From assembly GCA_046594095.1 (NCBI GenBank), contig JBKJQK010000042.1:1-37044 (forward strand): a DNA stretch of 37,044 nt, in the 5' to 3' direction. The notes beneath the pieces were generated by a model. It had not been told where the DNA came from, made no database searches, and saw nothing but the letters and a program-made list of their open reading frames with translations. Shown here piece after piece: positions 22,509-37,044 of this stretch. Position numbers and translations under genes: made by a program. How positions within the stretch are numbered: the stretch's first letter is position 1; every line of letters begins with the position of its first letter. The stretch comes from Anaerolineae bacterium. Its GTDB lineage: Bacteria; Chloroflexota; Anaerolineae; J036; Brachytrichaceae.

Positions 22509-23730
22509 TCAGCAAGCCGGTCAGCCAAAGAATCAGCATGCCCGCGGTTACGCCCGCGAACTGCGTGAGTGGCGAAGGCGCGTTGGCATTGTTCTTTTGC
22601 AGCATCCTGAAGAGCTGAAAAACGACGACAAAGACGGCGCCCGCGCCCACCGAAAGAAACAAGACCGCCAGCGGCTGTGAATAGCTCAGCCCGCCGATCC
22701 AGGCTCCCGCGATGGCGGGCCCACCGCCGATCAAGCCCATCAGGCCGAGATCGGAGAGCCTGAGCGGGTCGCCCGCGATGGGCGTGACGATCGCCAGCCC
22801 TTCGGTGATGTTTTGGATGATGAACCCGACCACGAGAAAAGTTCCAAGTGACGCCGCGCCCACGGCGAACGACGCGCCGATGGCGAGTCCTTCGCCAAAG
22901 TTGTGCAGGCCAATGCCAATCGCGATCATGAATGCGAGCGAGACGCGCGTCCGGGCAGGGTCAGGGGCAGTTGCGCTCCCGCCGCGGGGGGACGCCTGGC
23001 GCTGCGAGATGGCCTGCAGCAGCATGAACGTCGCAACGATCCCGATCCCGACGATGCCAATCCCCTGGAAGGCGCCCCCGAGTCCGTTGGCCAACTCCAA
23101 TGCCTCGCTCGCCGCGTCAATTCCGAGGAAGATCAACAATCCGATTGTCACGGCGGTAAAGAACACCATCCACCGCCGCGACATTCGGCGCAGGACAGGC
23201 AGCCACAACATGCCGAGCACAATCGGGATGACACCCACATACAGGCCGATCAGGGTGAAACTCAACAGGGTTCTGACATCGGCTGCGCGGGTTTCGGCCG
23301 CCACCGCGATCGAGGCGTCGAAGGCGATCGCGCTGGATGAGATCAGCCGGATGGCGTAGGCCTCCCCTTCAACCCACGGGTAGTCGAGCCTGATCGTTGC
23401 GCTTCCCAGCCGGGGGATTGAAGGCCCGGGGGTTGCCGCAAACGCCCAGTACGAATCGTTGATGATGACCTGGGCAATGGCGACGGTCTGCGGGCTGACG
23501 TTGCGCAAGTGCAGTTCGATCGTGCCGGGTTTGAGTGTCGCGCGCTCAAACTGAAGCGCCTCAATGGGGGCGGCGGGCTTGGCGCTGAGGCCGGCGCCAT
23601 CGGTGCGGACAAAGACCGCGATGACGACCGCCAGAAGGAGAATCGGCAGGGCGAACAGCAGAATTGTGCGGCCAGGGCCGGGCCTCGACGCGGTGACCGG
23701 ACTTGATCCCACAGGCGTGGTCTGGGTCAT
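22501..23730 (-). CDS. ZIP-family divalent metal permease with ~150-aa N-terminal extension (TM + extracytoplasmic beta-rich domain)
   Basis: ZIP signature IGIGLHNFGEGLAIG and about 8 hydrophobic helices in the C-terminal ~260 aa. The N-terminal helix LLFALPILLLAVVIAVF is followed by a soluble segment. Its 3' end overlaps the convergent ATPase gene by 8 nt. Confidence 0.8.
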   Translation of the reverse strand: MTQTTPVGSSPVTASRPGPGRTILLFALPILLLAVVIAVFVRTDGAGLSAKPAAPIEALQFERATLKPGTIELHLRNVSPQTVAIAQVIINDSYWAFAATPGPSIPRLGSATIRLDYPWVEGEAYAIRLISSSAIAFDASIAVAAETRAADVRTLLSFTLIGLYVGVIPIVLGMLWLPVLRRMSRRWMVFFTAVTIGLLIFLGIDAASEALELANGLGGAFQGIGIVGIGIVATFMLLQAISQRQASPRGGSATAPDPARTRVSLAFMIAIGIGLHNFGEGLAIGASFAVGAASLGTFLVVGFIIQNITEGLAIVTPIAGDPLRLSDLGLMGLIGGGPAIAGAWIGGLSYSQPLAVLFLSVGAGAVFVVVFQLFRMLQKNNANAPSPLTQFAGVTAGMLILWLTGLLIK

Positions 23731-23733
23731 GAT

Positions 23734-24795
23734 CTATGCCTCCACTTCAAATTGCCCAACCCAGCCCAGCTCGGCGAACTCGGTTTTGTGCGCGTGAAAG
23801 AGGTAGCGGCCCGGGTGTTTGTAGCGAAATTCCAAAATTCCGCGCTGGCCCTGGCCCTGAATGATGGTGTCGGTGAGCTCGCTCGGTGTCAGGCTCGTGC
23901 CGGTCGGAAAGTAGTGGAAGAAGTTCGCGTGCACGTGGAAGGAATTGAGCATGTCGTATTCGAGGATGTTCACCAGGAAAATCCTGTTCAACGCGCCGGC
24001 CTTGATCTTGATTGGATTGCGGTCGTAGTGAAAGGGGATCGTGTTGACGCAATAGATTTCGTTCTTGCCGTCAAAGTCAATATCAAACCCGGCCATCACC
24101 ATGACCATTTCCCTGTCCGCTTTGTTCACGTAACCCGCTTTTGGATCAATGATGAAGGCGCCGTACAGGCCCTTTGCAATGTGCGAAGCAAGCGGCAGCA
24201 CATGGCAGTGATAGAGATGCAGCCCAAACGGTTCGGCGTCAAACTCGTAGATGAAAGTGCCGCCCGGGTTGACCGGCGTTGCGCCGTCCATCTCGGCGGT
24301 ATGAAAGCCGTGAAAGTGAATCGAGTGGGCATGATCGCTGCCGTTGATGAAGGTGACTTTGACCCGGTCACCCTCCGTGCAGCGAATCGTCGGCCCGGGC
24401 ACGCGGCCGTTATAGGTCCAGGCCGGATACTGAATTCCCGGAGCGACTTCGATCATCTTATTCTGGGCCACGATGGTGTACTCGCGCAAGGTCTGCCCAT
24501 TTGCGAGCTGACTGACTTTGCCAAAGTCAAAATCCCCCAGCAGATCGGTCGGGTTGAAACCGTTGGCATCGTGGTCCACCTCCCCGACCATGCCCGCGCC
24601 CGAATGCCCGCCATGCGCGCCGCCCGACGGTGGCGGGAGCGGCTGCTGGTGCGGCTGGCCGGTTCCATGCGGGGAGGACCCGGACGCCGCAAGCCCGCCT
24701 CGCGCGCCCTCGCCAAACGCGGCAAAGCCGGTGGCAAGCGCGCCTGTGCCGAGCGCCCCCAGCAATAGGCGTCGCGAAATCGTTCTCTTGGTCAT
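23734..24795 (-). CDS. Tat-exported two-domain multicopper oxidase, NirK-like fold
   Basis: Twin-arginine signal MTKRTISRRLLLGALGTG. Cu-ligand motifs HSIHFHG, YHCHVLPLASHIAKGL, SFHVHANF, LFHAHKTEFAELG. His/Gly/Pro-rich linker after the signal. Stops 3 nt before the ZIP start. Start set at ATG 24795 rather than 24900. Confidence 0.8.
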   Translation of the reverse strand: MTKRTISRRLLLGALGTGALATGFAAFGEGARGGLAASGSSPHGTGQPHQQPLPPPSGGAHGGHSGAGMVGEVDHDANGFNPTDLLGDFDFGKVSQLANGQTLREYTIVAQNKMIEVAPGIQYPAWTYNGRVPGPTIRCTEGDRVKVTFINGSDHAHSIHFHGFHTAEMDGATPVNPGGTFIYEFDAEPFGLHLYHCHVLPLASHIAKGLYGAFIIDPKAGYVNKADREMVMVMAGFDIDFDGKNEIYCVNTIPFHYDRNPIKIKAGALNRIFLVNILEYDMLNSFHVHANFFHYFPTGTSLTPSELTDTIIQGQGQRGILEFRYKHPGRYLFHAHKTEFAELGWVGQFEVEA

Positions 24796-24905
24796 CTTGT
24801 CGAACCCCCCTTGGCGCCACGACCCACCTCGTGACTGCCCAAATACCTCGCGAAAGGGTGTGCCCCGCCTCAGACCGGGCCGATGAATTCCTGGACACAC
24901 TCCGG

Positions 24906-25926: not shown

Positions 25927-26328
25927 TCACACAGGCGGTCTACCTAATTCAGGACGATTTGTGAAGTACTTTACGCCGTCGATGGCGCCGAAGTGCTCAT
26001 CCTGGGTCCACAACACCGCTTTGTGAAGCTGCGCGGTCGCAAGGATCAGGCAGTCCGCCATCGCCAGCTTGCGCACGAGCGATATCCGCGCGGCATCAAG
26101 CGCGATCTCGCGATCAAGCGCGACCACCGTTCCCAGCGACATGAAGCCGACAAAGCGCAGAGCGTCTTCTTCGCCGGCCTGGGCCAGTAGGCGCTTGAAG
26201 ACCTCGAAGACGCAGATCACCGGAACGATGAGCCGATCAGTCGCCTGAATTGGAGGCGCAAAGAAGCGCGCGTTCGGTCCGCCGGCAAAATACTCGAGCC
26301 AGCCCGAGGAATCGACGACGTTCTTCAT
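25927..26328 (-). CDS. vapC: PIN-domain toxin VapC
   Basis: Acidic PIN residues in VVDSSGW, CVFEVF, MADCLILATA, WTQDEHF. 133 aa. ATGA overlap with the upstream antitoxin gene. Confidence 0.85.
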   Translation of the reverse strand: MKNVVDSSGWLEYFAGGPNARFFAPPIQATDRLIVPVICVFEVFKRLLAQAGEEDALRFVGFMSLGTVVALDREIALDAARISLVRKLAMADCLILATAQLHKAVLWTQDEHFGAIDGVKYFTNRPELGRPPV

Positions 26329-26630: not shown

Positions 26631-27824
26631 TCAGCCGCCGGCCGGCTGGCGTGAGCCGTCCAAAAAGACCGGTCTCCTCGACGACGCCAACCGCTCGAGC
26701 AGCGCGACCGCATGCGTCGGGCCGGGCAGCGCCGCGATTTTGTCGCGCATGCTTTCGGCCGCGCCCCGGCAGCCCGGATCGGCCAGAACGGCCGCCACTG
26801 CATCGCGGATCATGCCCGGGGTCGCCGCCACAGGATCCAGCGCCAGCCCAAGACCGAGTTCCACACACCGGGCGGCATTGTCGGGTTGATCGGCCCCCAT
26901 CGGGATGATCACCATGGGCCGGCCATGCGCGAGCGCGCCCAGCACGCTGCCCGACCCGCCATGCGCGACGACCAGATCGCAGCGGGGCAGAACCACCGCC
27001 TGAGGGATGTATTGGGCGACGACGACATGGCCGGGCTGCGGACCAAATTCTGCCGGGTCAATTTCGCGCCCGACCGTGGCGATCACGTTCACCGGCAATT
27101 TGCGCAGGCCGGCCAGCGCACGCGAGAAGAGGTCGCCTGACTCGAGGTTGAAAACAGTCCCCAACGTGAGATATACGGTTGGCGCGCTGGGAATTGGCTG
27201 GAGGCCGCCGAGCGCGCCATCATCCGAAGACCGGGGCAGTTCAAGATGGATGCTGTGCCCGGTGGGGGGCAGGGGGTGGGCTGGGTCACGAAAGCCGGGC
27301 GGAAACGGGCACAACACAAGATATCGGCGGAGCATTTCGAGCTCGAGGTCCAGCGGGAGCGCATGCCTGGCCCAGAGCGCGCTCAACGTCGGACCGACCG
27401 CGCTGGCGCCCACAAAGGCGCCGGCCGCCATGACCAGGACGCTGGCATACAGCAGGCCGAGCCGTTCCGCCGCGAGCATGGCTCCGAAATCGGTTTCGTC
27501 GCAGACGATGACATCCGGCCGCCACGCCTCACACAGCGCCAGGGTCAGGGGCACCCGATCCCGCGCCGCGCGACCGGCGAAGCGGTCCCGAAATTCTTGC
27601 TGCTCGCGGGCGGCGTCGAGCGGGCGGAGCGGCGCGCGAGCCGGCCCGCTTGACGCGCGGTCTCCCATTGGCGTCACGTCGAAGCCGGCCGCCCCGACGA
27701 TGGATGCCATCGACGGTCCGCATCCGAAAACGACCGCATGGCCGGCCGCCCTGGCCGCGCGGGCGACCGGGACGAGCGGCTCAAAGTGGCCGCTGCCGCC
27801 GACGAAGGTGAAGAGGATGCGCAT
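26631..27824 (-). CDS. GT1-family (GT-B fold, MGT/UDP-glycosyltransferase-like) glycosyltransferase
   Basis: MRILFTFVGGSGHFEPLVPVARAARAAGHAV at the N-terminus. C-terminal donor-binding region VVAHGGSGSVLGALAHGRPMVIIPMGADQPDNA. Start set at ATG 27824. Confidence 0.8.
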   Translation of the reverse strand: MRILFTFVGGSGHFEPLVPVARAARAAGHAVVFGCGPSMASIVGAAGFDVTPMGDRASSGPARAPLRPLDAAREQQEFRDRFAGRAARDRVPLTLALCEAWRPDVIVCDETDFGAMLAAERLGLLYASVLVMAAGAFVGASAVGPTLSALWARHALPLDLELEMLRRYLVLCPFPPGFRDPAHPLPPTGHSIHLELPRSSDDGALGGLQPIPSAPTVYLTLGTVFNLESGDLFSRALAGLRKLPVNVIATVGREIDPAEFGPQPGHVVVAQYIPQAVVLPRCDLVVAHGGSGSVLGALAHGRPMVIIPMGADQPDNAARCVELGLGLALDPVAATPGMIRDAVAAVLADPGCRGAAESMRDKIAALPGPTHAVALLERLASSRRPVFLDGSRQPAGG

Positions 27825-27950
27825 GATCGTGGTGACCTTAGCACGCTTTGGGCCGCGAGATGGACGCCCGGTCCCGCCGGGTTTTTCTCCTGGCTGACCT
27901 TCGCGTGATAACATCGCCTTTCAGCTATTTTCGGCCCGTTTTACACGTGT

Positions 27951-30900
27951 ATGGATGAAGCAAACACACCAGCCGGCACGTCTGGCGAGGCCAGCCCGTC
28001 GCCGGAGCCCGCGCGCAAGCGCTCGCTATTCGGCATTTCGATCCGCGTGAAACGGGCGGCTCCTCCCGTTGAACCGGCTGAGACACCCGAAAGCGTCGCG
28101 CCGGTTCCGCCTGAACCCGTGATCGGTCCTGCGGTTGAGATTGCGCTCCCTACCGCCACCATCGTCGAAGTGCCCCTTGAGGTCGGGGCCGAAGCCGCCC
28201 CCATAGTCGAAGTGCCCCTTGAGGTCGGGGCCGAAGCCGCCCCCATCGTCGATGTGCCCGCGGAGGTCGAGGCCGAAGTCGCGCCCATCGTCGAAATGCC
28301 CGCGGAGGTCGAGGCCGAAGTCGCCCCCACCGTCGATGTGCCCCTTGAGGTCGAGACCGAAGCCGCCTCCATCGTCGAAATGCCCGCAGAAGTTGGGGCC
28401 GGGGCTATCTCCATCGTGGAGATCATCGAGATGATTGAACCGCTAGCCCCCCACCTCCTCGATGCCTCCGCCATCATCGAAACCCCCATGGCGCCCGTTT
28501 TCGAAGTGCCTGCCGCCGTCATCGAACCACCCGCGGCGCCGCGCATCCGATTCCGGCTCCGGCCGGTTTGGACTTCCGCCGGCGTCCCCTCTGGCCGGGC
28601 CGGCCTGCGCTCGCGAGCCGCCTGGCTTAACAAGGACCGCCTGTCCTCGCTCCTCCTCATCCTGGCCATCATCATCGGCGGCGCGCTGCGATTCGCCGAC
28701 TTGAACTGGGACGACGGCAAGGGCTATCACCCCGACGAGCGCTTCATCACCGGGGTGACGACTGCCCTGAAATTCCCCGACACCCTGAAGCAGTTCATCG
28801 ATCCGCGCCTGTCGCCCTTCAACCCGTACAACGACGAGCGCAAACAGCCGCGCAACTTCGCATATGGGTCCTTCCCGTTGTACGCGACCAAGACCACCCA
28901 GCAGATCCTGAGCGCGTTCGACAAGAAGATCCTGGACTACGACCGGACCGCCGTGGTCGGCCGGGCGCTCTCGGCCCTGTTTGACACAGGCGCGATCCTG
29001 TTTGTTTTCCTGCTCGCCCGGCGCCTGTTCAATCGAAACGCCGCCCTGATCGGCGCGTTCCTGTACGCCCTGACCGTGCTGAGCATCCAGCACGCCCATT
29101 TCTACACCAGCGACATCACGCTGAACTTCTTCATCCTTCTGACCGCCTACGCGGCCACCGACATCGTGCGCAAGGGCGATTTGCGCAGCGGCGCGCTCAC
29201 CGGCGCGGCGGCGGCGCTCGCGATCGCCTGCAAGGTTGCCGCCGCCCCGCTCCTGCTGCTCATCCCGGTCACGCTGTTTTTGCGTTGGCGCGGGGTGAGC
29301 CTGCGCCTCGATGATCCGCCCTCGCCCAGGGTGGATGGGGAGCGCATCCTGGGTGTTGCCGCGATCGCCATTCTGGCTTTCCTGGGCGTCACCTTTATCG
29401 CCCAACCCTACGCGATTCTGGATGCGGCCTCGCTGTTCCGCAGCATCGAAGAGCAGAACAACATCATCGTCACCGGCGAGGCCGATCTGCCCTATATCCG
29501 GCAGTACTTCGGGACGGCCCCTTACGCCTACTTCCTGCAGCAACTTGCGGTATGGGGAATGGGTCTGCCCTACGGGATCTTCGCCCTGGCCGGGAGCCTG
29601 TTCCTGGTCTACCTCGCCTTTCGCAAGCGCTCCGTCGGCGCGGTCCTGCTGCTGGCCTGGCTGATCCCCTATTTCGCGATCTCCGGCCGTTTTCAGGCCA
29701 AGTTCCTGCGCTACATGCTGCCGCTGCTGCCGTTCCTGGCGATCGCGGCAGCGGTGCTGGCCGATCACGCCCGCGGCTGGTTGGCCAGGCTGGCCAAACG
29801 CCTCTCCCTCCCCGACGAGGGCGGCCTGAGCGTCGCGCTGCGTTATAGCGTGCCCGCCCTTCTCGTTGGGCTTACCGCCCTGTACGCCGTGGCCTTTGCG
29901 AACATCTACACCGAGCCGCATACGGCCAATCAAGCCTCAAAGTGGATCAACGCGAATGTCCCGGGCGGGTCGGCGATCACCCGCGAACACTGGGAAGAGG
30001 GCATTGCCGGCCTCAACCAGAGCTATCGCCAGCCCCCGGCCGTGCCCGAGCTGCCAATGTACGAGGTCGACAACGCCCAGAAGGGCGATCTGCTCTCGCG
30101 CGCCCTGACCCAGAGCGATTACATCGTCTTCTTCTCCAACCGGCTGTATGGCACGGTGGGCCGGCTTGTCCAACGCTATCCGCTCAGCCACGAGTACTAC
30201 CGGCTGCTGTTCAGCGGCGAGCTCGGCTATGAGCTGGCCTATTACGCCGACGCGCCGGTCCAGTTTGGGCCGGTCGCCCTGTACGAAGACACCTTTGGCC
30301 GGCCGGGGTTGCCGCGGCCTGGGGCGCTGGCTGACTATCGCCCGGCCCCGCTGACGCTCAATCTGGGCTTTGCCGACGAGAGCTTCTCGGCCTATGACCA
30401 TCCCCTGGTCATGGTTTTCAAGAAGACCCGTCCCATCACCGCCGAGGCCGTCAGCGCAGCCCTGCGCCCCTTCGCGCCCGCGGCCCAGGCCGCGTCGGCG
30501 ACCCGGGCCCAATCGCTCCTGACCGAAGCGCAGACGGCAGAAAATGAGTCGGGTGGCACGTTCGCGGATCTGTTCAATCCCAACGCCCTGCCCAATCAGG
30601 CGCCCCTGCTCGTCTGGTTTGTATTGATGTTGGTGCTGAGTTTGGCCATGCTGCCCGTCACCGCCCTGATCTTCCGGCGCCTGGCCGATCGCGGCTACGC
30701 CTTCGGGCGGGCTTTGGGGATGGTTCTGCTTTCCTGGCTGGTCTGGTTCCCGGTCAGCCTGCGCCTTCTCGAAAGCACCCGCCTGGCCGCTTTTGGGGCG
30801 CTGCTCGCGATGGTGATCGGCGGGGCCATCCTGTGGCGGCTCCATGCCGCAGAACTGACGAAGTTCATTCGTGAACGCTGGCGCGTGCTCCTGACCGAAG

Positions 30901-33329
30901 AGCTGATCTTCTGGATCGTGTTCGGGCTGTTTGTGTTTGTGCGGGCCTCGAATCCCGACCTGTGGCATCCCGCCCGCGGGGGCGAGAAGCCGATGGACTT
31001 TGCGTATCTGCTGGCGGCCATCAAGACCACGACCCTTCCGCCGTATGACCCATGGTTCGCCGGCGGTTACATCAACTATTACTACTATGGCCAGTTCATG
31101 CTGGCGGTGCTGATCAAACTGAGCGGCATCCTGCCTGAGATGGCCTACAACCTGGTTGTGCCGATGCTGTTCGCGATGACGGCGGCGGGCATGTGGGGTT
31201 TGTCTTACAACGTTGTGTCGGCGATCCGCGGCGATGCGGGCGCGCGCGGCCGGCTGCCCTCGCCCGCCCTGGGGGCGACCCTGTCGATGCTGTTCATGTC
31301 CGCCTTCGGCAACCTCGATGGCGGGCTGATCCTGTTTCGGCGCTTCATCGTTCTGGGAGGCGGGACGGATGCGCCGCTGGGCGTCTTGTTGACCAGCCTC
31401 AACGACATTCCGCGCCTGTTCAATGGCCTGCTCAAGGGCATCCAGGGTGGGCAGAAAGTGATGCAGCTTCCGATCGACTGGTTCTGGGCGCCCACCCGGG
31501 TGTATCCGCCCTCCGCATCGATCCAGGAGTTCCCGTTCTTCACCTTCCTGTTCTCGGACCTGCACGCGCACATGATCGCAATGCCGATCGCTATTGTTGC
31601 CCTGGGCTTCGGGCTGGCCCTGGCGATGGGGCGGCCCCTTGGGGCAGCCGCGCCGGCTGCCAGTAGCGATACGCCGTTGCGGCGCGCATGGGCGCGTCTC
31701 CGGCCATGGCTGCTGCCCGCCGTCACGGTCCTGCTGGCCGGGCTGGTGTTGGGCGCGATCGGGCCGACCAACTCATGGAACTACCCGACCTACATCCTGG
31801 TCACCCTCGGCGCGGCGCTGTTTGGCTGGTGGTCGGCGGAAAATCCGCTTGAGGCGCGCCGGGCCGGCCGCGGAGCGGCCACACTACCCGCGCTTGGCCA
31901 GGCCCTCTTTGTTGGCGGAGCGATTTGCGCGCTGAGTTACGTGGCCTATGCGCCCTTCCACGGCGCCCTTCAGCGGGCCGACCTGGGATTCGAGGCTCAG
32001 CCTGAGCGCACGCCGTTTAACCTGTTCCTGCTCGTTCAGGGCTTCTTCCTATTTGTCGTCCTGAGCTGGCTGGCGGTCGAAGCCCGGCGCTGGTTTGGGG
32101 CGAACGTCACAACTCGGATGCGCACTGCCCCGGCCGGGCGCCAGATCTCGGCCTTCGACGCGCTTGGGGCGGCGATGGCCGAATCAGGCATCACCTTCAA
32201 CCGGATCATCGGAACGCTGCTGCTCCTGGTTGCGCTGGCGTTGCTGCTGCTGGCCCTTGGCTGGGGCCCGGTTGCGGTCTTCTCGACGTTGTGCGCGATC
32301 CCCGTCGTCACCCTGGCCCTCACCCGCCGGCCCGGCGCCCAGGGGTTCACCCTGCTCTGCGCGGGACTGGGTCTGGTGCTGTGCGCGGCGGTCGAAGTCT
32401 GGGTGCTCAAGGGCGATGTCGGGCGGATGAACACGGTGTTCAAGTATTACCTCGACGTCTGGACGCTGTTCTCACTGGCCGCCGGGGTGGGGCTGGCGAC
32501 GATGATCAGCGGGCTGTATGGCGGCAGACTCCAGCGCGCCCCGCGAATTCGGATTGAGTTGACCCGCTCGTGGCGCCTCGGTATCGTGGCGGACGGCTGG
32601 CTTGCCCAGACCCGGCCAGACCCGGCCGAGGCGGCGGGGGTCGACGAGATGGTTGCGGCTTCTGACGCCAGCGCGCCCGAGCGCGGCGCGCAGTCTCGCC
32701 CCGGCGTGACGGGCATCGTCTGGACGGCCGCCCTGGCCCTGCTCGGGATAACGGCCGCGGTCTATCCGTTTTTTGCGTTACCGGGCCGGCTGATCGACCG
32801 GTTTGACACCAAGATCGCCCCGACCCTGGATGGCATGAAATACATGGAAACCGCCCGGTTGCCGGTCGAGACCCAGCGCGACGGGCGGCGCTTCAGCGCC
32901 GAGCTCAAGCTTTCGGACGACCTGGCCGCGATCCGCTGGTTGCGCGAGAACATCGTGGGCTCGCCTTTGGTGCTCGAAGCGACCTCGGCCGCCGACCCGC
33001 ACCCGCGCCTGTATGGTTGGGGAAACCGGGTGGCCATCTATACCGGGCTTCCGACGATCATCGGGTGGGACAACCATCAGCGCCAGCAGCGCAACGGCAC
33101 GCCCCTCATCGAGCAACGCACCGGCGACGTTCTGAAGATTTACGCCACCGCGAATGCGGACGAGACGCAGCGCCTGCTGCAGCAGTACCGCGTTGATTTC
33201 ATTTACTACGGCGGCTTGGAGAAGTTTCACTATCCGGCCGGAGAGGCCAAGTTCGCCGACCTGGCGGCCCGCGGCGCGTTGACGCCGGTGTATAACCAGC
33301 AAAACACACTCATTTACAAGGTGAACTGA
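27951..33329 (+). CDS. 1,792-aa polytopic membrane protein: acidic tandem-repeat N-terminus + GT-C-like glycosyltransferase module + DUF2298 / Chlor_Arch_YYY module
   Basis: Uninterrupted ORF. Residues 71-166 are 14-aa repeats. From about residue 230 there are many TM helices, with GYHPDERF in the first loop, and a soluble segment at ~650-830 (ADESFSAYDHPLVMVFKK). The second TM-rich half carries GGEKPMDFAYLLAAIKTTTLPPYDPWFAGGYINYYYYGQF (YYYY at 31077-31088), the hallmark of TIGR03662/PF10060 as I recall it. Confidence 0.85.
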   Translation: MDEANTPAGTSGEASPSPEPARKRSLFGISIRVKRAAPPVEPAETPESVAPVPPEPVIGPAVEIALPTATIVEVPLEVGAEAAPIVEVPLEVGAEAAPIVDVPAEVEAEVAPIVEMPAEVEAEVAPTVDVPLEVETEAASIVEMPAEVGAGAISIVEIIEMIEPLAPHLLDASAIIETPMAPVFEVPAAVIEPPAAPRIRFRLRPVWTSAGVPSGRAGLRSRAAWLNKDRLSSLLLILAIIIGGALRFADLNWDDGKGYHPDERFITGVTTALKFPDTLKQFIDPRLSPFNPYNDERKQPRNFAYGSFPLYATKTTQQILSAFDKKILDYDRTAVVGRALSALFDTGAILFVFLLARRLFNRNAALIGAFLYALTVLSIQHAHFYTSDITLNFFILLTAYAATDIVRKGDLRSGALTGAAAALAIACKVAAAPLLLLIPVTLFLRWRGVSLRLDDPPSPRVDGERILGVAAIAILAFLGVTFIAQPYAILDAASLFRSIEEQNNIIVTGEADLPYIRQYFGTAPYAYFLQQLAVWGMGLPYGIFALAGSLFLVYLAFRKRSVGAVLLLAWLIPYFAISGRFQAKFLRYMLPLLPFLAIAAAVLADHARGWLARLAKRLSLPDEGGLSVALRYSVPALLVGLTALYAVAFANIYTEPHTANQASKWINANVPGGSAITREHWEEGIAGLNQSYRQPPAVPELPMYEVDNAQKGDLLSRALTQSDYIVFFSNRLYGTVGRLVQRYPLSHEYYRLLFSGELGYELAYYADAPVQFGPVALYEDTFGRPGLPRPGALADYRPAPLTLNLGFADESFSAYDHPLVMVFKKTRPITAEAVSAALRPFAPAAQAASATRAQSLLTEAQTAENESGGTFADLFNPNALPNQAPLLVWFVLMLVLSLAMLPVTALIFRRLADRGYAFGRALGMVLLSWLVWFPVSLRLLESTRLAAFGALLAMVIGGAILWRLHAAELTKFIRERWRVLLTEELIFWIVFGLFVFVRASNPDLWHPARGGEKPMDFAYLLAAIKTTTLPPYDPWFAGGYINYYYYGQFMLAVLIKLSGILPEMAYNLVVPMLFAMTAAGMWGLSYNVVSAIRGDAGARGRLPSPALGATLSMLFMSAFGNLDGGLILFRRFIVLGGGTDAPLGVLLTSLNDIPRLFNGLLKGIQGGQKVMQLPIDWFWAPTRVYPPSASIQEFPFFTFLFSDLHAHMIAMPIAIVALGFGLALAMGRPLGAAAPAASSDTPLRRAWARLRPWLLPAVTVLLAGLVLGAIGPTNSWNYPTYILVTLGAALFGWWSAENPLEARRAGRGAATLPALGQALFVGGAICALSYVAYAPFHGALQRADLGFEAQPERTPFNLFLLVQGFFLFVVLSWLAVEARRWFGANVTTRMRTAPAGRQISAFDALGAAMAESGITFNRIIGTLLLLVALALLLLALGWGPVAVFSTLCAIPVVTLALTRRPGAQGFTLLCAGLGLVLCAAVEVWVLKGDVGRMNTVFKYYLDVWTLFSLAAGVGLATMISGLYGGRLQRAPRIRIELTRSWRLGIVADGWLAQTRPDPAEAAGVDEMVAASDASAPERGAQSRPGVTGIVWTAALALLGITAAVYPFFALPGRLIDRFDTKIAPTLDGMKYMETARLPVETQRDGRRFSAELKLSDDLAAIRWLRENIVGSPLVLEATSAADPHPRLYGWGNRVAIYTGLPTIIGWDNHQRQQRNGTPLIEQRTGDVLKIYATANADETQRLLQQYRVDFIYYGGLEKFHYPAGEAKFADLAARGALTPVYNQQNTLIYKVN
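28161..28440 (+). repeat. About 6.5 tandem copies of a 42-bp coding repeat (14-aa unit IVEVPLEVGAEAAP)
   Basis: Copies start at 28161, 28203, 28245, 28287, 28329, 28371 and 28413 (degenerate). Copies 1 and 2 differ by a single base. Units are in frame with the giant ORF. Confidence 0.9.
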
Positions 33330-33345: not shown

Positions 33346-34068
33346 TTGAACATTCTGATCTTCATCCCGACCTACGAGGAGCGCGAGAATGTCGAAAAGA
33401 TGGCGGCGGATCTGCAGGCGCTGCATTTTCCCAAGGACATCCTGTTCATGGACGACGCCTCGCCCGACGGGACGGGCGAGGCCCTCGACGCGCTGGCGCG
33501 CCAACACGCCAACATCCAGGTGCTTCATCGGCCAGGCAAGCTCGGCATCGGCAGCGCGCATGTCGCCGGGCTGGCCTGGGCGCGCGAGCATGGCTACACC
33601 CGGGTGGTCACGATGGACTGCGACTTCACGCACGCGCCGGACAAGATACAGGAGATGATCGCCTTCGCCGACGACTATGACGTCGTGGTTGGATCGCGCT
33701 ACATGCATGATCATGGTCTCAGCGAATGGAATTGGCGCCGGAAGTTTCTCACCCGGACCGGGCACTTTGCGACGCGATATTTGCTGGGGATGCCCTACGA
33801 CGCGACGGGCGCATTCCGCCTGTACCGCCTGGATCGTATTCCGCATTCCGCCTTCGTGAAGGCGAACGCGTCCGGGTACTCGTTCTTCTTCCAAAGCCTG
33901 TACATCCTCCATCGCAATGGCCTGCGGATCAAGGAAATACCGATCGAGTTGCCGGCCCGGATGTACGGGCACTCCAAGATGGTCTTCGGGGAGGTTTTGC
34001 GCAGCCTCCAGCACCTGGGCCGGTCATTCGTGACCCGGGTATTTAATCCCAAGGCCTTCGAGCTGTAG
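33346..34068 (+). CDS. GT2 polyprenyl-phosphate sugar synthase (Dpm1/Ppm1-like polyprenol monophosphomannose synthase family)
   Basis: ILIFIPTYEERENV, FMDDASPDGT, VVTMDCDFTHAP (DxD-type), VVVGSRY. 240 aa, soluble-type. The only possible start in the open frame is TTG 33346. Confidence 0.8.
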   Translation: MNILIFIPTYEERENVEKMAADLQALHFPKDILFMDDASPDGTGEALDALARQHANIQVLHRPGKLGIGSAHVAGLAWAREHGYTRVVTMDCDFTHAPDKIQEMIAFADDYDVVVGSRYMHDHGLSEWNWRRKFLTRTGHFATRYLLGMPYDATGAFRLYRLDRIPHSAFVKANASGYSFFFQSLYILHRNGLRIKEIPIELPARMYGHSKMVFGEVLRSLQHLGRSFVTRVFNPKAFEL

Positions 34069-34089: not shown

Positions 34090-34177
34090 TGACCGACCGG
34101 ACTACTGACCGACCGGACTACTGACCGACCGGTCTACCGACCGACCGGTCTACCGACCGACCGGTCTACTGACCGAC
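34090..34177. repeat. 5.5 tandem copies of a 16-nt unit (TGACCGACCGGACTAC / CGACCGACCGGTCTAC)
   Basis: Units at 34090, 34106, 34122, 34138 and 34154, plus a partial unit at 34170-34177. The array lies between convergent genes and overlaps the last 4 codons (including the stop) of the minus-strand GT2-MT gene. Confidence 0.9.
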
Positions 34178-35665
34178 TGCGACCGCCACCAGGTTCAACC
34201 CGGGCCAGGGAAGCGCGCTGTCGATGCGGCGGATCGTCGGCATGATGATTTCGAGCAACTTGAGCTGCGAGGGCGTGTAGGCCCGCTGTTTAAACAAGCG
34301 CCCGTTGGACCACCAGCCCAGCGTCGACGCCCGGTTGAAGTCAAACATCGACTCGGCCCGCAGGCCGGCCGCCTCGAGGGTCGTCCGGAGCGTCTCGCGG
34401 GTATATCGCCGCCGGTAACCCAGCGCTTCATCGATCGTTCCCCGGATTCCGGGCTGCTGGGCGGTCAGGATGATGATCCGCCCGCCGGGCATGAGTGCCC
34501 GGCTCGCATTGCGCAGCACAGCGACGGGGTCCTCGGCCCGTTCGAGCGCGCTCACCAGCACCACGGTATCAAATTGGCCAACCAGCGGGTCGAAATCAGC
34601 CGGGTGGGTCGGGTCAACCTTGAGCACCCGCAAATACGGCTTGCCGAGCGAGTAGCCGGCCAGATAGTCGAGCTGGGTCGGATTCGTCTCAGTGGCGACA
34701 TACAGGTCGCGCGGGATGAACTGGCTGGTCAGGCTGCCTGCGCCCGCGCCGATTTCGAGCACCCGGTCGCCCAGCAGGGGGCGGAGGGTGCTGCCCAGCC
34801 ACTGGTTGAAACGCCGGGCGTTTTGCAGGTTGCGAACCATCCCGGCCCCGACTTCATCCTCACGGTACAGATCATCGATGATGGAGTAGGTGACCATTGC
34901 CCGGAGGGCCAGGACGCCGTCCCTGGCCCGGATCTTCTTGCCTTCTTCGAAGCTGCGGGGAAGATAGCGGATCGGCACCTCGAAGATGCGGGCCCGGCGC
35001 TTGGCCAGCTTGAGGGTGATCTCGATCTCGAACCTGAAGTCGTTCGAGCGCAAGGGCAGTGACTTGAGCAGGCGGGTGTTGATCGCCTTGTAGCAGGTCT
35101 CGACATCGGTCAGATCGAGGTCGGTGATCCAATTAGTCAACCCGGTGATGAAGCGGTTGATCAGGGTATGGCGGAACATCAGCGCCCGGCGGTACTGGGC
35201 GGAGATATAGCGCGAGCCAAAGACCGCGTCGGCGCCCTCCTCGATGAAGGGCTCGAGGATGGCCGGAATATCGGCCGGGTTGTACTCCATGTCCGCGTCG
35301 TGGACGATGCACACATCCCCGGTCGCATACTGGAGGGCGGTCCTGAGGGCGGCGCCTTTGCCCTGGTTGCGCTCGTGGCGGATCAGTTTGATCCGATCGT
35401 CCGTGGTGGCCAGCCGCTGGAGAACTTCCCAGGTGCCGTCCTTGCTGCGGTCATCGACGATGATGACCTCGAGGCGCGAAATCCGCTCGCTGCGCAGGGC
35501 CAGCACCCGGTTCACGCTGGCGGTGACGAGGTGCCGCTCGTTGTAGACCGGGATCATGACGCTCAAGGCGAGGGCATGCGGCCGGCGCTGCTCGGAGGTG
35601 GGCAGGGCGGTCAGCAGTTCGAGCGGTTGCGGGCGTTCGGCGGCAGCCGTTTCAGCGCGAAGCAT
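34166..35665 (-). CDS. Bifunctional GT2 glycosyltransferase / class I SAM-dependent methyltransferase fusion (499 aa)
   Basis: N-terminal GT2 motifs: LSVMIPVYNE, IIVDDRSKDGT, CIVHDADMEYNP, VFGSRY. C-terminal methyltransferase motif I VLEIGAGAGSLT and post-II LMPGGRIIIL. Confidence 0.85.
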   Translation of the reverse strand: MLRAETAAAERPQPLELLTALPTSEQRRPHALALSVMIPVYNERHLVTASVNRVLALRSERISRLEVIIVDDRSKDGTWEVLQRLATTDDRIKLIRHERNQGKGAALRTALQYATGDVCIVHDADMEYNPADIPAILEPFIEEGADAVFGSRYISAQYRRALMFRHTLINRFITGLTNWITDLDLTDVETCYKAINTRLLKSLPLRSNDFRFEIEITLKLAKRRARIFEVPIRYLPRSFEEGKKIRARDGVLALRAMVTYSIIDDLYREDEVGAGMVRNLQNARRFNQWLGSTLRPLLGDRVLEIGAGAGSLTSQFIPRDLYVATETNPTQLDYLAGYSLGKPYLRVLKVDPTHPADFDPLVGQFDTVVLVSALERAEDPVAVLRNASRALMPGGRIIILTAQQPGIRGTIDEALGYRRRYTRETLRTTLEAAGLRAESMFDFNRASTLGWWSNGRLFKQRAYTPSQLKLLEIIMPTIRRIDSALPWPGLNLVAVAVGQ

Positions 35666-35773: not shown

Positions 35774-37044
35774 CTACGCTTTTCGCCCGATGCCGATGGC
35801 GCTGATACCCGGCCAGGGCAGGATCCGATCAAGGGCCCGCACAATCGGCATGATCAACTCCAGCGCTTTAAGTTGAACGCTTGAGAAATCCTTGCGCCGA
35901 AGCACTCTTGCGTTCCAGAACCAGGCTGGCACCGAAATCCGGTTGAAATCGAACATGCGCTCGACCTCAAAGCCGGCGGACTCCAGGGAGCGGCGCAGTC
36001 CCGTGGCGGTGTAGCGCTCGCGATGCTCGAGCACTTCGTCGAGCGATCCGTACAGCGCCGGGTGCTGTGGCACGAGGATCACGACCCGACCGCCAGGCGC
36101 CAGCGCGGTCCGCAGGTTTTTCAACGAAAGTTGCTCATCCGGAACATGCTCGAGCACGTTGATCATGACCGCCGTGTCAAACACGCCCTGCACCTTCTCG
36201 AAGTCTCCCTCGTTTCCCGCGTCGATCCGCATCACGCGCAAGTAGGGCTTTCCGATCGCGTAGGAGCCAAGGTAATCCAAATAGCGCGGGTTGATGTCGC
36301 TGGCCACATACAACTCGCGCGGGATAAATTGGTTTGTGAGATTGCCAATCCCGGCCCCGATTTCCAAAACGCGATCGCCAATGTACGGGCGCAGCGTGTC
36401 GGCCATCCACTGATTGAATCGGCGCGCCGATTGCAGGTCGTTGAGGATGTTCGACCCGTACTCATCGCCCATATAGATGTCGTCCACGATCGAATAACGC
36501 AGCATGGCCAGGATCGCCAGGAAACCGTCCTTGGCCCGGATTTTCTTGCCTTCCACATAGCTTCGGGGGGAATAGCGAATGGGCACTTCATAGATGCGCG
36601 CCCGCCGCTTCGCGAGCTTGAGGGCCAGCTCGACTTCGAACCGGAAATCATTCGACCGCAGCGGGATTGACTTGAAAAGAGGCGTCTTGATCGCCTTGTA
36701 ACAGGTCTCGACGTCGGTCAGGTCAAGGTCGGTCAGCCAGTTTGAGATTGCCGTGAGGGTGTTGTTGATCTTGGTGTGACGATACATCAACGCCCGGCGA
36801 TACTCGGCAGAGATATAGCGTGACCCAAACACGGCGTCGGCGCCCTCGCGGATGAAGGGCACCATCAGTCTGGCCAGATCCTCGGGGTTGTACTCCATGT
36901 CGGCGTCGTGGATGACGCACACATCGCCGGTGGCGTGACCGCGCGCGGTCCGGATGGCAGCGCCTTTGCCCAGGTTGCGCTCATGGCGAAGGAGGGTGAT
37001 TCGAGCATCTTGCGCCGGCTGGCGGCGCAAGATGCTCGAATCAC
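35774..37044 (-). CDS. Second GT2 glycosyltransferase / SAM methyltransferase fusion, paralog of 34166..35665 (N-terminus beyond window end)
   Basis: Collinear with the neighbour, by eye roughly 55-60% identical: CVIHDADMEYNP, VFGSRY, NDFRFEVE, VLEIGAGIGNLT, LAPGGRVVIL. The frame is open to the window edge. The track start at 37030 is a TTG inside the GT2 domain, so the gene is 5'-truncated by the window. Confidence 0.8.
   Translation of the reverse strand, partial: DSSILRRQPAQDARITLLRHERNLGKGAAIRTARGHATGDVCVIHDADMEYNPEDLARLMVPFIREGADAVFGSRYISAEYRRALMYRHTKINNTLTAISNWLTDLDLTDVETCYKAIKTPLFKSIPLRSNDFRFEVELALKLAKRRARIYEVPIRYSPRSYVEGKKIRAKDGFLAILAMLRYSIVDDIYMGDEYGSNILNDLQSARRFNQWMADTLRPYIGDRVLEIGAGIGNLTNQFIPRELYVASDINPRYLDYLGSYAIGKPYLRVMRIDAGNEGDFEKVQGVFDTAVMINVLEHVPDEQLSLKNLRTALAPGGRVVILVPQHPALYGSLDEVLEHRERYTATGLRRSLESAGFEVERMFDFNRISVPAWFWNARVLRRKDFSSVQLKALELIMPIVRALDRILPWPGISAIGIGRKA
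36996..37044. repeat. Perfect 22-bp inverted repeat (5-nt loop) terminating exactly at the window end
   Basis: 36996-37017 (GTGATTCGAGCATCTTGCGCCG) is the exact reverse complement of 37023-37044. Loop is GCTGG. Confidence 0.9.

What the first reader, a model, noticed from the sequence alone, without database searches (positions are those of the whole stretch)
27951..33329. Giant fusion of a GT-C-like glycosyltransferase module with a DUF2298 / Chlor_Arch_YYY module
One uninterrupted 5.4-kb ORF encodes three parts. The first is an acidic repeat region. The second is a polytopic segment starting near residue 230, with an acidic GYHPDERF motif in its first loop and a ~180-aa soluble domain. That layout matches lipid-carrier-dependent GT-C enzymes (ArnT / PMT_2 type). 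The third is another polytopic half bearing [12 protein letters not shown]...[20 protein letters not shown]. This YYYxG signature defines TIGR03662 / PF10060 (DUF2298), a family with no experimentally assigned function that is described from Chloroflexi and Archaea. Physical fusion to a GT-C-like module, next to a polyprenyl-phosphate sugar synthase gene, is a concrete functional lead. It suggests DUF2298 acts in extracytoplasmic, lipid-linked glycosyl transfer.
Basis: partly seen in the sequence, partly recalled or inferred. Interest (0 to 1): 0.72.

Follow-up and report, generated by a model that had tools for sequence, protein, structure and literature searches.

The report
Two-module membrane glycosyltransferase of Chloroflexota
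The 5.4-kb gene is real and encodes two related membrane sugar-transferase modules joined in one protein, but this layout is the normal form of a large, untested protein family in Chloroflexota bacteria, not an oddity of this genome.

Summary
ORF 27951-33329 (+) encodes 1792 aa in three parts: an acidic repeat extension (aa 1-225), a PMT_2-type GT-C module (aa 228-855) and a DUF2298/TIGR03662 module (aa 885-1792).

1. The fusion is not unusual. All 120 listed homologue clusters and all 80 best species-representative genome loci carry both modules in one ORF, in the same order. All 80 loci are Chloroflexota.
2. DUF2298 is itself GT-C-like. The only significant PDB matches of its AlphaFold model are GT-C enzymes (DPY19, STT3, AglB, AftA). 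Its profile also aligns with the N-module profile (hhalign 91%, E 1e-6). The protein is therefore a tandem of two paralogous GT-C units.
3. The neighbouring 240-aa DPM1-like GT2 is real, but it is missing even from the closest relatives. What recurs outside Dehalococcoidia is a cluster of further PMT_2-type GT-C genes, a stand-alone DUF2298 gene, GT4 and methyltransferase genes.

Most likely function: a covalent "heterodimer" of two polyprenyl-phosphate-sugar-dependent transferases acting on the outer face of the membrane. The acceptor is unknown. This is an ordinary member of a known but uncharacterised family. Interest is moderate.

The parts
27951..33329 (+). Whole gene: 1792-aa bimodular GT-C membrane protein (stop codon included)
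   Evidence: ORF list and translation. Pfam and NCBIfam hits. Full-length homologues.
27951..28625 (+). N-terminal extension, aa 1-225. It has a conserved start motif, MDE.NTP...KRSLFGISIRVKR (KRSLFGISIRVKR = aa 23-35), followed by a variable acidic linker rich in Pro, Ala, Val and Glu. It is probably cytoplasmic and disordered.
   Evidence: Found only in the Thermoflexales clade (P0002-P0006); other homologues start at about query residue 225. The motif is conserved and the linker varies in length. An Arg-rich stretch lies just before TM1.
28153..28385 (+). 42-bp tandem repeat of 5.5 copies, encoding 14-aa units of the type PIVEVPLEVGAEAA
   Evidence: Tandem Repeats Finder: 86% matches, score 326.
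28632..29915 (+). N-module membrane core, aa 228-655, about 11 transmembrane helices, PMT_2/PMT-type GT-C
   Evidence: PMT_2 E 4e-13 and PMT E 5e-8. AlphaFold model pLDDT 93. Foldseek matches to AglB, STT3, ALG12/9, ArnT, Pmt4, Emb and AftD.
28722..28745 (+). GYHPDERF in the first outer loop. P261, D262 and E263 are invariant. This is the putative catalytic or metal-binding DE motif at the start of the first juxtamembrane helix.
   Evidence: 60 of 60 sequences conserved. Position relative to the helices taken from the model.
29916..30515 (+). N-module soluble alpha/beta domain, about aa 656-855. Invariant residues: W665, W681, R731, E810, Y815, H817, P818.
   Evidence: Secondary structure of the model. 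Conservation. Its N-terminal part (to aa 727, with E679 opposite E1676) aligns with the C-terminal soluble domain of the C-module.
30603..33326 (+). C-module = DUF2298 / Chlor_Arch_YYY, aa 885-1792: three extra transmembrane helices, a GT-C-like core and a soluble domain
   Evidence: TIGR03662 at 510.6 bits and PF10060 at E 1e-105. Model pLDDT 88. Foldseek matches to DPY19, STT3, AglB and AftA.
30942..31091 (+). First outer loop of the C-module core, aa 998-1047: R..[15 protein letters not shown]...[10 protein letters not shown].INYYYxG. Invariant residues: R998, D1003, W1005, G1010, G1011, E1012, K1013, D1033, Y1043-1045, G1047.
   Evidence: Column counts of 60 out of 60. Weak alignment to the first loop of the N-module.
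31521..31571 (+). IxEFPFFTFL.ADLHAH, aa 1191-1207. Invariant residues: E1193, P1195, D1203, H1205, H1207. These are candidate ligands for a metal or a phosphate.
   Evidence: Column counts. H1205 aligns with the invariant H383 of the N-module in the profile comparison.
32793..33326 (+). C-terminal soluble domain of the C-module, about aa 1615-1792. Invariant residues: W1663, G1670, E1676, T1698, G1699, G1705, H1709, R1714, R1723, E1757.
   Evidence: Model. Borderline fold match to the C-terminal globular domain of AglB-S2, 3vu0: probability 1.0, TM-score 0.53, but E 0.1. Conservation.
33346..34068 (+). 240-aa GT2, DPM1/PpgS-like polyprenyl-phosphate glycosyltransferase with the catalytic domain only. 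It starts 16 nt after the stop codon on the same strand and is probably co-transcribed. It is specific to this lineage.
   Evidence: Glycos_transf_2 E 1.5e-25. Best PDB match is P. furiosus Dol-P-Man synthase 5mlz, E 9e-18 over aa 1-226. PpgS, PgfS and ArnC models match below their cutoffs. Absent from L003 and L005.
34166..35665 (-). Fusion of an AglJ/DPM1-like GT2 with a SAM methyltransferase (499 aa). Conserved next to the gene in the Thermoflexales clade.
   Evidence: Orthologues in L003 and L005.
35774..37030 (-). Second GT2-methyltransferase paralogue. Its N-terminus is cut by the end of the window.
   Evidence: The GT2 match starts at model position 51. Paralogues in L003 and L005.

Best explanation
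The gene encodes one polypeptide made of two paralogous GT-C-type glycosyltransferase units, in effect a covalent heterodimer.

Anatomy:
- A lineage-specific acidic tail lies in the cytoplasm.
- Unit 1 (aa 228-855) has about 11 transmembrane helices, an invariant HPDER motif in its first outer loop and an outer soluble domain.
- Three linker helices then bring the chain back across the membrane.
- Unit 2 (aa 885-1792, the DUF2298 domain) has its own invariant acidic first loop (NPD...GGEK...D...YYYxG), an IxEFP...DLHAH motif and a second outer soluble domain.

Proposed mechanism:
1. DPM1-like GT2 enzymes load a sugar onto polyprenyl phosphate on the cytoplasmic face. Here these are the 240-aa GT2 and the GT2-methyltransferase fusions.
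2. The lipid-linked sugar is flipped to the outer leaflet.
3. Each GT-C unit transfers it to an acceptor held by the soluble domains. The two units probably carry out two consecutive or two different linkages on one envelope glycan or surface glycoprotein.

Basis of each step:
- Shown here: the architecture, its conservation, the GT-C fold of both units and their paralogy.
- Inferred: the donor type, the topology and catalytic activity in both units.
- Unknown: the acceptor and the sugar.
For: Family and fold:
- PMT_2, PMT, PF10060 and TIGR03662 all score above their curated cutoffs.
- The N-module model (pLDDT 93) gives 28 matches at E <= 1e-3, all of them GT-C-fold membrane proteins: 27 GT-C glycosyltransferases (AglB 6e-10, STT3, ALG12/9, ArnT 5e-7, Pmt4, Emb, AftD) plus PIG-U (8imx_U).
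- The DUF2298 model (pLDDT 88) gives six significant matches, all GT-C: DPY19 3e-6, STT3 3e-4, AglB 4e-4, AftA 8e-4. The next matches have probability <= 0.3.
- The N- and C-module profiles align at 91% probability, E 1.1e-6, over 326 columns that include the soluble domains.

Conservation:
- Acidic and histidine residues in the outer loops of both units are invariant in 60 of 60 sequences.
- The architecture is found in 80 of 80 loci and 120 of 120 clusters.

Genomic context:
- Outside Dehalococcoidia the gene sits among further PMT_2-type GT-C genes, some with NHL or PA14 domains. These occur in 26 loci, with a stand-alone DUF2298 gene in 17 of the 80 species loci and GT4 and methyltransferase genes nearby.
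- On a Pseudobutyrivibrio plasmid, a stand-alone DUF2298 gene lies in a surface-polysaccharide locus. That locus also carries a GtrB-type polyprenyl-phosphate glucosyltransferase (E 6e-70 to 5ekp), a GtrII GT-C and an O-antigen ligase.
- The adjacent GT2 in the window is DPM-synthase-like.
Against: - No member of DUF2298 has any experimental function. The papers that mention it give no functional data.
- The fold matches of the C-module are local: TM-scores are 0.26-0.35 normalised to the query and at most 0.51 to the target. No solved structure is detectable by sequence.
- The alignment of the first loops of the two modules is only marginal (E 0.02-0.04), so the equivalence of the catalytic residues is inferred.
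- In Dehalococcoidia the gene sits among housekeeping genes (LOG-like, enolase, GAPDH) with no glycosylation context.
- A GT-C-like protein, Agl23, has been reported to flip lipid-linked glycans rather than transfer them (PMC11182771). A GT-C fold therefore does not prove transferase activity.
Confidence: 0.6

Rival explanations
1. Only the N-module is a transferase. The DUF2298 module is a non-catalytic GT-C-like unit that flips or scrambles the lipid-linked sugar or presents the acceptor, so the fusion couples supply to transfer.
For: Agl23 of Haloarcula hispanica defines TIGR03663, the PMT-like family that is the best NCBIfam match for the N-module region. It is described as a putative hexose-P-dolichol flippase and translocated a lipid-linked glycan in proteoliposomes (PMC11182771). 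The fold match of DUF2298 to GT-C enzymes is weaker than that of the N-module.
Against: DUF2298 keeps a set of invariant acidic and histidine residues in its outer loops, as expected of an active site. Stand-alone DUF2298 genes exist without a fused partner. The N-module itself fails the TIGR03663 cutoff (17.8 against 126 bits).
Confidence: 0.2
2. One or both modules act as a polymerase or ligase, like Wzy, O-antigen ligase or an oligosaccharyltransferase. They would move pre-assembled oligosaccharides from a polyprenyl diphosphate carrier instead of single sugars from a monophosphate carrier.
For: The best fold matches include the oligosaccharyltransferases AglB and STT3 for both modules, and the C-terminal domain resembles that of AglB. 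An O-antigen ligase gene sits beside DUF2298 on the Pseudobutyrivibrio plasmid.
Against: There is no STT3 Pfam hit and no WWD string anywhere in the protein. In the only look-alike, GWDxH, the Asp is present in just 34 of 60 sequences. The neighbouring GT2 genes are of the monophosphate-sugar synthase type. PMT_2 relatives use monophosphate donors (established knowledge of GT39 and GT83).
Confidence: 0.15
3. The long ORF is an artefact: two ordinary genes joined by an assembly or frameshift error.
For: None found. The only reasons for suspicion are the unusual length and the high G+C content, which also produces long spurious antisense ORFs.
Against: The same single-frame N-then-C arrangement occurs in 80 of 80 independent genomes and 120 of 120 protein clusters. 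Relatives at 65-75% identity cover 99-100% of the length.
Confidence: 0.01

Closest known systems
DUF2298 (PF10060) / Chlor_Arch_YYY (TIGR03662) family
   Same: The window protein is a full member. It matches the whole model, carries the YYYxG signature and has the N-terminal extra module. Larger relatives with two DUF2298 copies, some also carrying TPR repeats, were seen here.
   Different: Nothing essential. The only local peculiarity is the 225-aa acidic repeat extension, which is confined to the Thermoflexales clade.
PMT_2 / PMT-type GT-C enzymes: GT39 protein O-mannosyltransferases and GT83 ArnT
   Same: The N-module passes both Pfam cutoffs. It has an invariant Asp-Glu at the start of the first outer loop, about 11 helices and a GT-C fold.
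   Different: The Pfam match covers only about 110 residues. No MIR or PMT_4TMC domain was found. The soluble domain is C-terminal and unrelated to those of Pmt or ArnT. Substrate unknown.
Pmt1-Pmt2 and EmbA-EmbB heterodimers of GT-C enzymes
   Same: Two paralogous GT-C units work side by side. Here the two units are joined covalently. Both Pmt and Emb structures appear among the fold matches.
   Different: An interface between the modules was not modelled, because the full length exceeds the prediction limit. The analogy is an inference.
STT3 / AglB / PglB oligosaccharyltransferases (GT66) and DPY19 C-mannosyltransferase (GT98)
   Same: These are the best structural matches of the DUF2298 module. 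The C-terminal globular domain resembles that of AglB.
   Different: No sequence-level relation was found. There is no WWDYG motif. TM-scores are low.
Agl23 (TIGR03663), the flippase-associated PMT-like protein of Haloarcula hispanica
   Same: It is the best NCBIfam match for the N-module region. From my recollection of the TIGRFAM description, its family co-occurs with TIGR03662. It is linked to the use of dolichyl-phosphate hexose (PMC11182771).
   Different: The score of 17.8 bits is far below the cutoff of 126, so the N-module is not a member.
Gtr-type three-component glycosylation (GtrA, GtrB, GtrC/GtrII)
   Same: The logic is the same: a GT2 makes a polyprenyl-phosphate sugar and a GT-C uses it outside the membrane. 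A DUF2298 gene lies beside GtrB-like and GtrII-like genes on a Pseudobutyrivibrio plasmid.
   Different: The GT2 in the window lacks the C-terminal membrane helices of GtrB (240 aa against about 310). No GtrA-like flippase was seen in the window.

Membership tests
DUF2298 / TIGR03662 (Chlor_Arch_YYY) | Score above the curated cutoffs over the whole model | tested here: met
   PF10060 scores 354.7 bits against 27.8, covering model positions 1-488 of 488. TIGR03662 scores 510.6 bits against 300.25, covering positions 4-726 of 727.
DUF2298 / TIGR03662 (Chlor_Arch_YYY) | YYYxG signature | tested here: met
   NYYYYG lies at aa 1042-1047. Y1043-1045 and G1047 are present in 60 of 60 homologues.
GT-C fold superfamily, N-module | Polytopic core with a GT-C fold | tested here: met
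   PMT_2 and PMT score above their gathering scores. Foldseek gives 28 matches at E <= 1e-3, all GT-C-fold proteins: 27 GT-C enzymes plus PIG-U.
GT-C fold superfamily, N-module | Conserved acidic residue in the first extracytoplasmic loop | tested here: met
   D262 and E263 are present in 60 of 60 sequences, directly after TM1 and at the start of the first juxtamembrane helix. The side of the membrane is inferred, not measured.
GT-C fold superfamily, C-module (DUF2298) | Polytopic core with a GT-C fold | tested here: met
   All six Foldseek matches at E <= 1e-3 are GT-C enzymes and the others drop to probability <= 0.3. The profile is homologous to the N-module. TM-scores are modest.
GT-C fold superfamily, C-module (DUF2298) | Conserved acidic residue in the first outer loop of the core | tested here: inconclusive
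   D1003, E1012 and D1033 are invariant and follow the helix that aligns with TM1 of the N-module. That alignment is only marginal, and no residue-level superposition was possible.
GT-C fold superfamily, both modules | Transfer from a polyprenyl-phosphate-linked sugar donor | not testable with these tools
   This needs biochemistry.
GT39 protein O-mannosyltransferases | PMT core plus the PMT_4TMC C-terminal domain (and a MIR domain in eukaryotes) | tested here: not met
   Only PMT model positions 81-205 of 245 are matched. No PMT_4TMC or MIR hit at E <= 1.
GT66 oligosaccharyltransferases (STT3 / AglB / PglB) | STT3 family match and WWDYG motif | tested here: not met
   No STT3 Pfam hit. No WWD string in the protein. 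In GWDxH the Asp is present in only 34 of 60 sequences.
TIGR03663 (Agl23) | Score above the curated cutoff | tested here: not met
   17.8 bits against a cutoff of 126.25.
DPM1 / PpgS / GtrB-type polyprenyl-phosphate glycosyltransferases (the neighbouring 240-aa GT2) | GT2 catalytic domain closest to known polyprenyl-phosphate sugar synthases | tested here: inconclusive
   The best PDB match is Dol-P-Man synthase 5mlz, E 9e-18 over the full length. The next matches are ArnC and GtrB. All NCBIfam equivalog scores are far below their cutoffs.

The most novel reading that the evidence does not exclude
DUF2298 is an unclassified GT-C glycosyltransferase family with no experimental data. It is paralogous to its PMT_2-like partner. 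The fused protein would be a covalent heterodimer at the centre of a conserved multi-GT-C pathway (PMT_2-NHL, PMT_2-PA14, stand-alone DUF2298, GT4 or GT2 plus methyltransferases). That pathway would build a still unknown, possibly methylated, envelope glycan or surface glycoprotein of Chloroflexota. The O-glycosylation seen on a Chloroflexota archaellin, whose enzyme is unknown (PMC12488501), is one candidate product.
Probability: 0.4. Interest if true: 0.65.

Novelty: new member of a known kind. Interest (0 to 1): 0.4.

Why it matters
DUF2298 is a large family. Its members are very large, strongly conserved membrane proteins with no assigned function.

Showing that the domain is a GT-C-like paralogue of its fused PMT_2-type partner gives a concrete hypothesis that can be tested by mutation, with named residues. 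The hypothesis concerns how Chloroflexota, and some Archaea and Clostridia, build part of their cell envelope. Showing that the gene sits in a recurring multi-GT-C cluster adds to this.

For this window specifically, the gene is an ordinary family member. The value lies in the family, not in the locus.

Tried and rejected
- **Oligosaccharyltransferase-like reading of DUF2298.** SIQE looks like the TIXE/SVSE motif and GWDNH looks like WWDYG. Rejected as evidence of membership: there is no WWD string, the Asp of GWDxH is present in only 34 of 60 sequences, and there is no STT3 hit. The I-x-E-F-P motif is nearly invariant, but its equivalence to TIXE could not be tested without coordinates.
- **Sequence searches of the PDB.** Searches with the full profile and with the DUF2298 core profile found nothing meaningful. 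The only hits were an antibody CDR with a YYYYG string and a reductase.
- **Literature.** 'DUF2298' occurs in two papers, neither of them functional. 'TIGR03662', 'Chlor_Arch_YYY' and 'PF10060' gave nothing, and the 'YYY domain' hits concern the unrelated Y_Y_Y sensor domain. Lu et al. 2020 on Agl22 and Agl23 is not held.
- **Conserved adjacency of a DPM-like GT2.** Rejected. It is seen only in the window, L003, L005 and, marginally, L070, even at E 0.01.
- **A shared 'HAH' metal motif in both modules.** Only partly true. In the N-module only H383 is invariant and H381 is not.
- **Direct alignment of the first loops of the two modules.** Marginal only (BLASTP E 0.02, hhalign E 0.04, probability 1%).
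- **Archaeal neighbourhoods.** Not reached. The best 80 genome loci were all Chloroflexota, and the plasmid collection held only one hit, from Clostridia.
- **Pfam clan and CAZy status of DUF2298.** These could not be looked up with the tools available.
Full report
**Observation**

ORF 27951-33329 on the + strand is the longest ORF in the window: 1792 aa with an ATG start. The region has a strongly negative AT skew of -0.20 to -0.24 between 29 and 33 kb. I read this as typical of a gene rich in hydrophobic codons. The long antisense ORFs inside it (496 and 544 aa) are the usual by-product of 65% G+C.

- **Acidic extension.** Residues 1-225 are acidic, with 27 D/E against 6 K/R in the first 140 residues. 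They contain a 42-bp repeat of 5.5 copies at 28153-28385.
- **N-module.** A polytopic segment starts at aa 228, with GYHPDERF at aa 258-265. It matches PMT_2 (aa 335-446, E 4e-13) and PMT (E 5e-8), both above their gathering scores.
- **C-module.** The second half carries [18 protein letters not shown] and NYYYYG at aa 1010-1047. It matches PF10060 (E 1e-105) and TIGR03662 (aa 885-1791, 510.6 bits against a cutoff of 300.25).

**Is the single ORF real?**

Yes. The protein search returned 194 relatives. The 120 listed all contain both modules in the same order. Five clusters from Thermoflexales at 65-75% identity cover 99-100% of the length.

The best 80 are all Chloroflexota: Thermoflexales, Dehalococcoidia including SAR202, Anaerolineae and Chloroflexia. 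In 80 of 80 of these loci, N and C lie in one ORF with N first.

The closest locus is L005, a Thermoflexales MAG with 91% identity over the 261-aa core.

The start codon is supported. The first 35 residues (MDE.NTP...KRSLFGISIRVKR) are conserved in the Thermoflexales clade. The acidic Pro/Ala/Val/Glu linker that follows varies in length and sequence. Homologues outside that clade begin at about residue 225.

**What the two modules are**

*N-module.* The AlphaFold model of aa 216-870 is confident (pLDDT 93, pTM 0.94). Against the PDB it gives 28 hits at E <= 1e-3. All are GT-C-fold membrane proteins: 27 are GT-C glycosyltransferases (AglB 6e-10, STT3, ALG12 and ALG9, ArnT 5e-7, Pmt4, EmbA/B/C, AftD) and one is PIG-U (8imx_U). 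Transporters follow only at E >= 0.05.

*C-module (DUF2298).* The model of aa 861-1792 is also good (pLDDT 88, pTM 0.91).
- Its six hits at E <= 1e-3 are all GT-C enzymes: DPY19 3e-6, STT3 3e-4, AglB 4e-4, AftA 8e-4.
- The next hits are pyrophosphatases and transporters at E > 1e-2 with probability <= 0.3.
- TM-scores are modest (0.26-0.35 on the query, up to 0.51 on AftA), so the resemblance is distant.
- The C-terminal globular part resembles the C-terminal domain of an AglB (3vu0, probability 1.0, TM 0.53), but at a borderline E of 0.1.

*Relation between the modules.* A profile-profile comparison of 60-sequence alignments gives 91% probability and E 1.1e-6 over 326 columns. It pairs:
- N aa 383-727 with C aa 1205-1753;
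- Q..HF with DLHAH;
- VKxMRYxLP with TVFKFYLQxW;
- the starts of the two soluble domains, AS.WI..NVP.GS..E with AI.WL..NV.GSP..E.

The first helix and first loop of the two cores align only marginally (E 0.02 by BLASTP; E 0.04). Even so, they share the pattern R-x(2-4)-N-(W/P)-D ... H-P ... E-(R/K).

I conclude that DUF2298 is a GT-C-like module and a distant paralogue of its fused partner. The protein is a tandem GT-C, not a GT-C joined to something else.

**Conserved residues and topology**

Residues invariant in 60 of 60 sequences:
- *N-module:* R247, P261, D262, E263, H383, R587, Y588. In its soluble domain: W665, W681, R731, E810, Y815, H817, P818.
- *C-module:* R998, P1002, D1003, W1005, G1010, G1011, E1012, K1013, D1033, Y1043-1045, G1047, W1179, R1183, E1193, P1195, D1203, H1205, H1207, R1492, N1494, F1497. 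In its soluble domain: W1663, E1676, T1698, G1699, G1705, H1709, R1714, R1723, E1757.

In both models the acidic motif lies directly after a long transmembrane helix, at the start of a short helix. In characterised GT-C enzymes the catalytic Asp/Glu sits at this position (established knowledge of PMT, ArnT and STT3).

The inferred topology is as follows.
- The segment before TM1 is Arg-rich, so it is probably cytoplasmic.
- The N-module has about 11 helices, which places its soluble domain outside.
- Three further helices (C-model 25-104) return the chain to the inside, so that the core of the C-module starts in the same orientation.

This is inference from the models and the positive-inside rule. 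It has not been measured.

**Genomic context**

*In the window.*
- The gene is followed after 16 nt, on the same strand, by a 240-aa GT2 (33346-34068). Its best solved relative is the Pyrococcus Dol-P-Man synthase (E 9e-18 over the full length), followed by ArnC and GtrB. The NCBIfam matches PpgS, PgfS, AglJ and ArnC are all below their cutoffs. Calling it a polyprenyl-phosphate sugar synthase is therefore reasonable at family level.
- Two convergent AglJ/DPM1-like GT2-methyltransferase fusions follow (34166-35665 and 35774 to the window end).
- A GT1 lies upstream in divergent orientation.

*In relatives.*
- The 240-aa GT2 and the GT1 are absent from the two closest relatives, L003 and L005.
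- Both relatives keep the two GT2-methyltransferase genes. Then come PMT_2 and PMT_2-PA14 genes, with a further PMT gene in L003.
- Among the 80 species loci only L005 and L070 have a DPM-like GT2 nearby, as does the close relative L003, even at E 0.01.

*Recurring neighbours.* I clustered all flanking ORFs of the 85 sources, that is the window plus 84 loci.
- PMT_2-type GT-C genes, some with a C-terminal NHL propeller or PA14 domain, occur in 26 loci (48 ORFs).
- A stand-alone DUF2298 gene follows directly downstream in 17 of the 80 species loci.
- GT4 and SAM-methyltransferase genes are also frequent.
- All are typically on one strand. A common order is GT4, methyltransferase, PMT_2, N+C fusion, DUF2298, PMT_2, PMT_2-NHL.
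- Three loci carry N+C+C giants.

*Dehalococcoidia.* There the gene instead sits in housekeeping synteny: LOG-like, enolase and GAPDH genes upstream, prephenate dehydratase downstream.

*An independent case outside the phylum.* On plasmid pNP95 of Pseudobutyrivibrio xylanivorans, a stand-alone DUF2298 (751 aa, PF10060 E 3e-91) lies in a surface-polysaccharide locus. The locus holds:
- a GtrB-type synthase (E 6e-70 to 5ekp);
- a GtrII GT-C;
- an O-antigen ligase;
- a sugar aminotransferase;
- a sugar epimerase/dehydratase.

**Mechanism proposed**

The protein is a covalent pair of paralogous GT-C transferases. It acts on the outer face of the cytoplasmic membrane and uses polyprenyl-phosphate sugars made by DPM1-like GT2 enzymes. 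Each module has its own acidic first loop and its own soluble domain. I expect two consecutive or two different transfers onto one envelope glycan or surface glycoprotein. This would be analogous to the obligate Pmt1-Pmt2 and EmbA-EmbB pairs.

- Shown here: the architecture, its conservation, the fold of both modules and their paralogy.
- Inferred: the donor class, the topology and activity of both modules.
- Unknown: the acceptor and the sugar.

Probable O-glycosylation of a Chloroflexota archaellin, with no assigned enzyme, has been reported (PMC12488501). That is one candidate substrate, but nothing links it to this gene.

**Rival explanations**

- DUF2298 could be a non-catalytic flippase-like or acceptor-presenting unit. 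The precedent is Agl23, a PMT-like protein that translocates lipid-linked glycans in vitro (PMC11182771). The N-module is not an Agl23 family member (17.8 against 126 bits).
- The modules could work as a polymerase, ligase or oligosaccharyltransferase on diphosphate-linked oligosaccharides. Against this: no STT3 hit, no WWD string, and the GWDxH Asp present in only 34 of 60 sequences.
- An assembly artefact is excluded by the comparative data.

**Comparison with what is known, and novelty**

The protein is a full member of PF10060/TIGR03662. As far as I recall, the TIGRFAM description already mentions forms with an extra N-terminal region, two copies and TPR repeats, and co-occurrence with the PMT-like TIGR03663. 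Forms of 2100-2750 aa were seen here, several of them with TPR repeats or two DUF2298 copies.

Public records already label relatives as 'glycosyltransferase family 39 protein', 'phospholipid carrier-dependent glycosyltransferase' or 'DUF2298 domain-containing protein'. No functional study of DUF2298 was found, and NCBIfam of June 2026 still gives it no functional name.

The family is large: 6553 representatives of 50%-identity clusters match the C-module at E <= 1e-3, and 2097 match at E <= 1e-30.

The locus is thus a new member of a known but uncharacterised kind. Two results here may be new: DUF2298 is GT-C-like and paralogous to its partner, and it sits in a recurring multi-GT-C cluster. 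I could not check the Pfam clan or CAZy status.

**Verdict**

- Observation: confirmed.
- Interpretation: right in direction, but the fusion is ordinary for the phylum and the neighbouring-gene argument is lineage-specific.
- Interest: 0.4.

Noticed in passing
window 33346-34068: The 240-aa DPM1-like GT2 directly downstream is absent from the two closest relatives. In L003 and L005 only about 60 bp separate the big gene from the GT2-methyltransferase gene. The GT2 is therefore a recent gain in this lineage, or a loss in the others.
   Followed up: partly
window 34166-35665 and 35774-37030 (- strand): Two tandem paralogues fuse an AglJ/DPM1-like GT2 to a SAM methyltransferase. The second is cut by the end of the window. 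The pair is conserved in L003 and L005 and hints at a methylated sugar.
   Followed up: partly
window 26631-27914 (- strand): A GT1 glycosyltransferase of the EryCIII / macrolide-GT type lies in divergent orientation, with only 36 bp between the two start codons. It is not conserved next to the gene in relatives.
   Followed up: partly
L011 1192-8502; L070 7313-15271; L036 1-5997; L001 701-12788: Some Chloroflexota carry three-module giants (N+C+C, up to 2653 aa). L001 has three DUF2298 genes in a row (1570, 864 and 1597 aa as ORFs).
   Followed up: partly
L022, L025, L026, L044, L051, L056 and others (flanks of the fusion gene): There is a recurring same-strand cluster: GT4, SAM methyltransferase, PMT_2, N+C fusion, stand-alone DUF2298, PMT_2, PMT_2 with an NHL propeller. 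It looks like a dedicated multi-GT-C pathway.
   Followed up: partly
L004, L007, L066, L083, L031 and other Dehalococcoidia loci: In Dehalococcoidia the fusion gene sits in conserved housekeeping synteny: LOG-like, enolase and GAPDH genes upstream, prephenate dehydratase downstream. There are no glycosylation genes nearby.
   Followed up: partly
L085 (Pseudobutyrivibrio xylanivorans plasmid pNP95, 61638-80291): A stand-alone DUF2298 gene in a Clostridia plasmid lies in a surface-polysaccharide locus. The locus also holds a GtrB-like GT2, a GtrII GT-C, an O-antigen ligase, a DegT aminotransferase and a CapD-like epimerase/dehydratase.
   Followed up: yes
window 4232-5506 and 5522-6601: Two adjacent paralogous Mrp/NUBPL-type P-loop NTPases, each with an FeS_assembly_P domain.
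   Followed up: no
window 9390-12137: A 915-aa protein joins an adenylate/guanylate cyclase domain to a STAND-type NTPase.
   Followed up: no
window 20271-24900: Metal-handling genes lie together: an HMA-domain P-type ATPase, a ZIP-like membrane protein (below the Pfam cutoff) and a multicopper oxidase.
   Followed up: no
window 25927-26328 (- strand): A PIN-domain (VapC-like) toxin gene. A partner antitoxin was not looked for.
   Followed up: no
window 52-2946: A PsrABC-like oxidoreductase set: a molybdopterin-binding domain, a 4Fe-4S subunit and an NrfD membrane subunit. The first gene shows only its C-terminal domain and may start before the window.
   Followed up: no
window 28443-29933 and 29937-31571 (- strand): Long antisense ORFs (496 and 544 aa) lie inside the gene. 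They have no support and are typical of high-G+C DNA. Similar alternative-frame and antisense ORFs within the fusion gene also clustered across loci in the neighbour analysis.
   Followed up: partly
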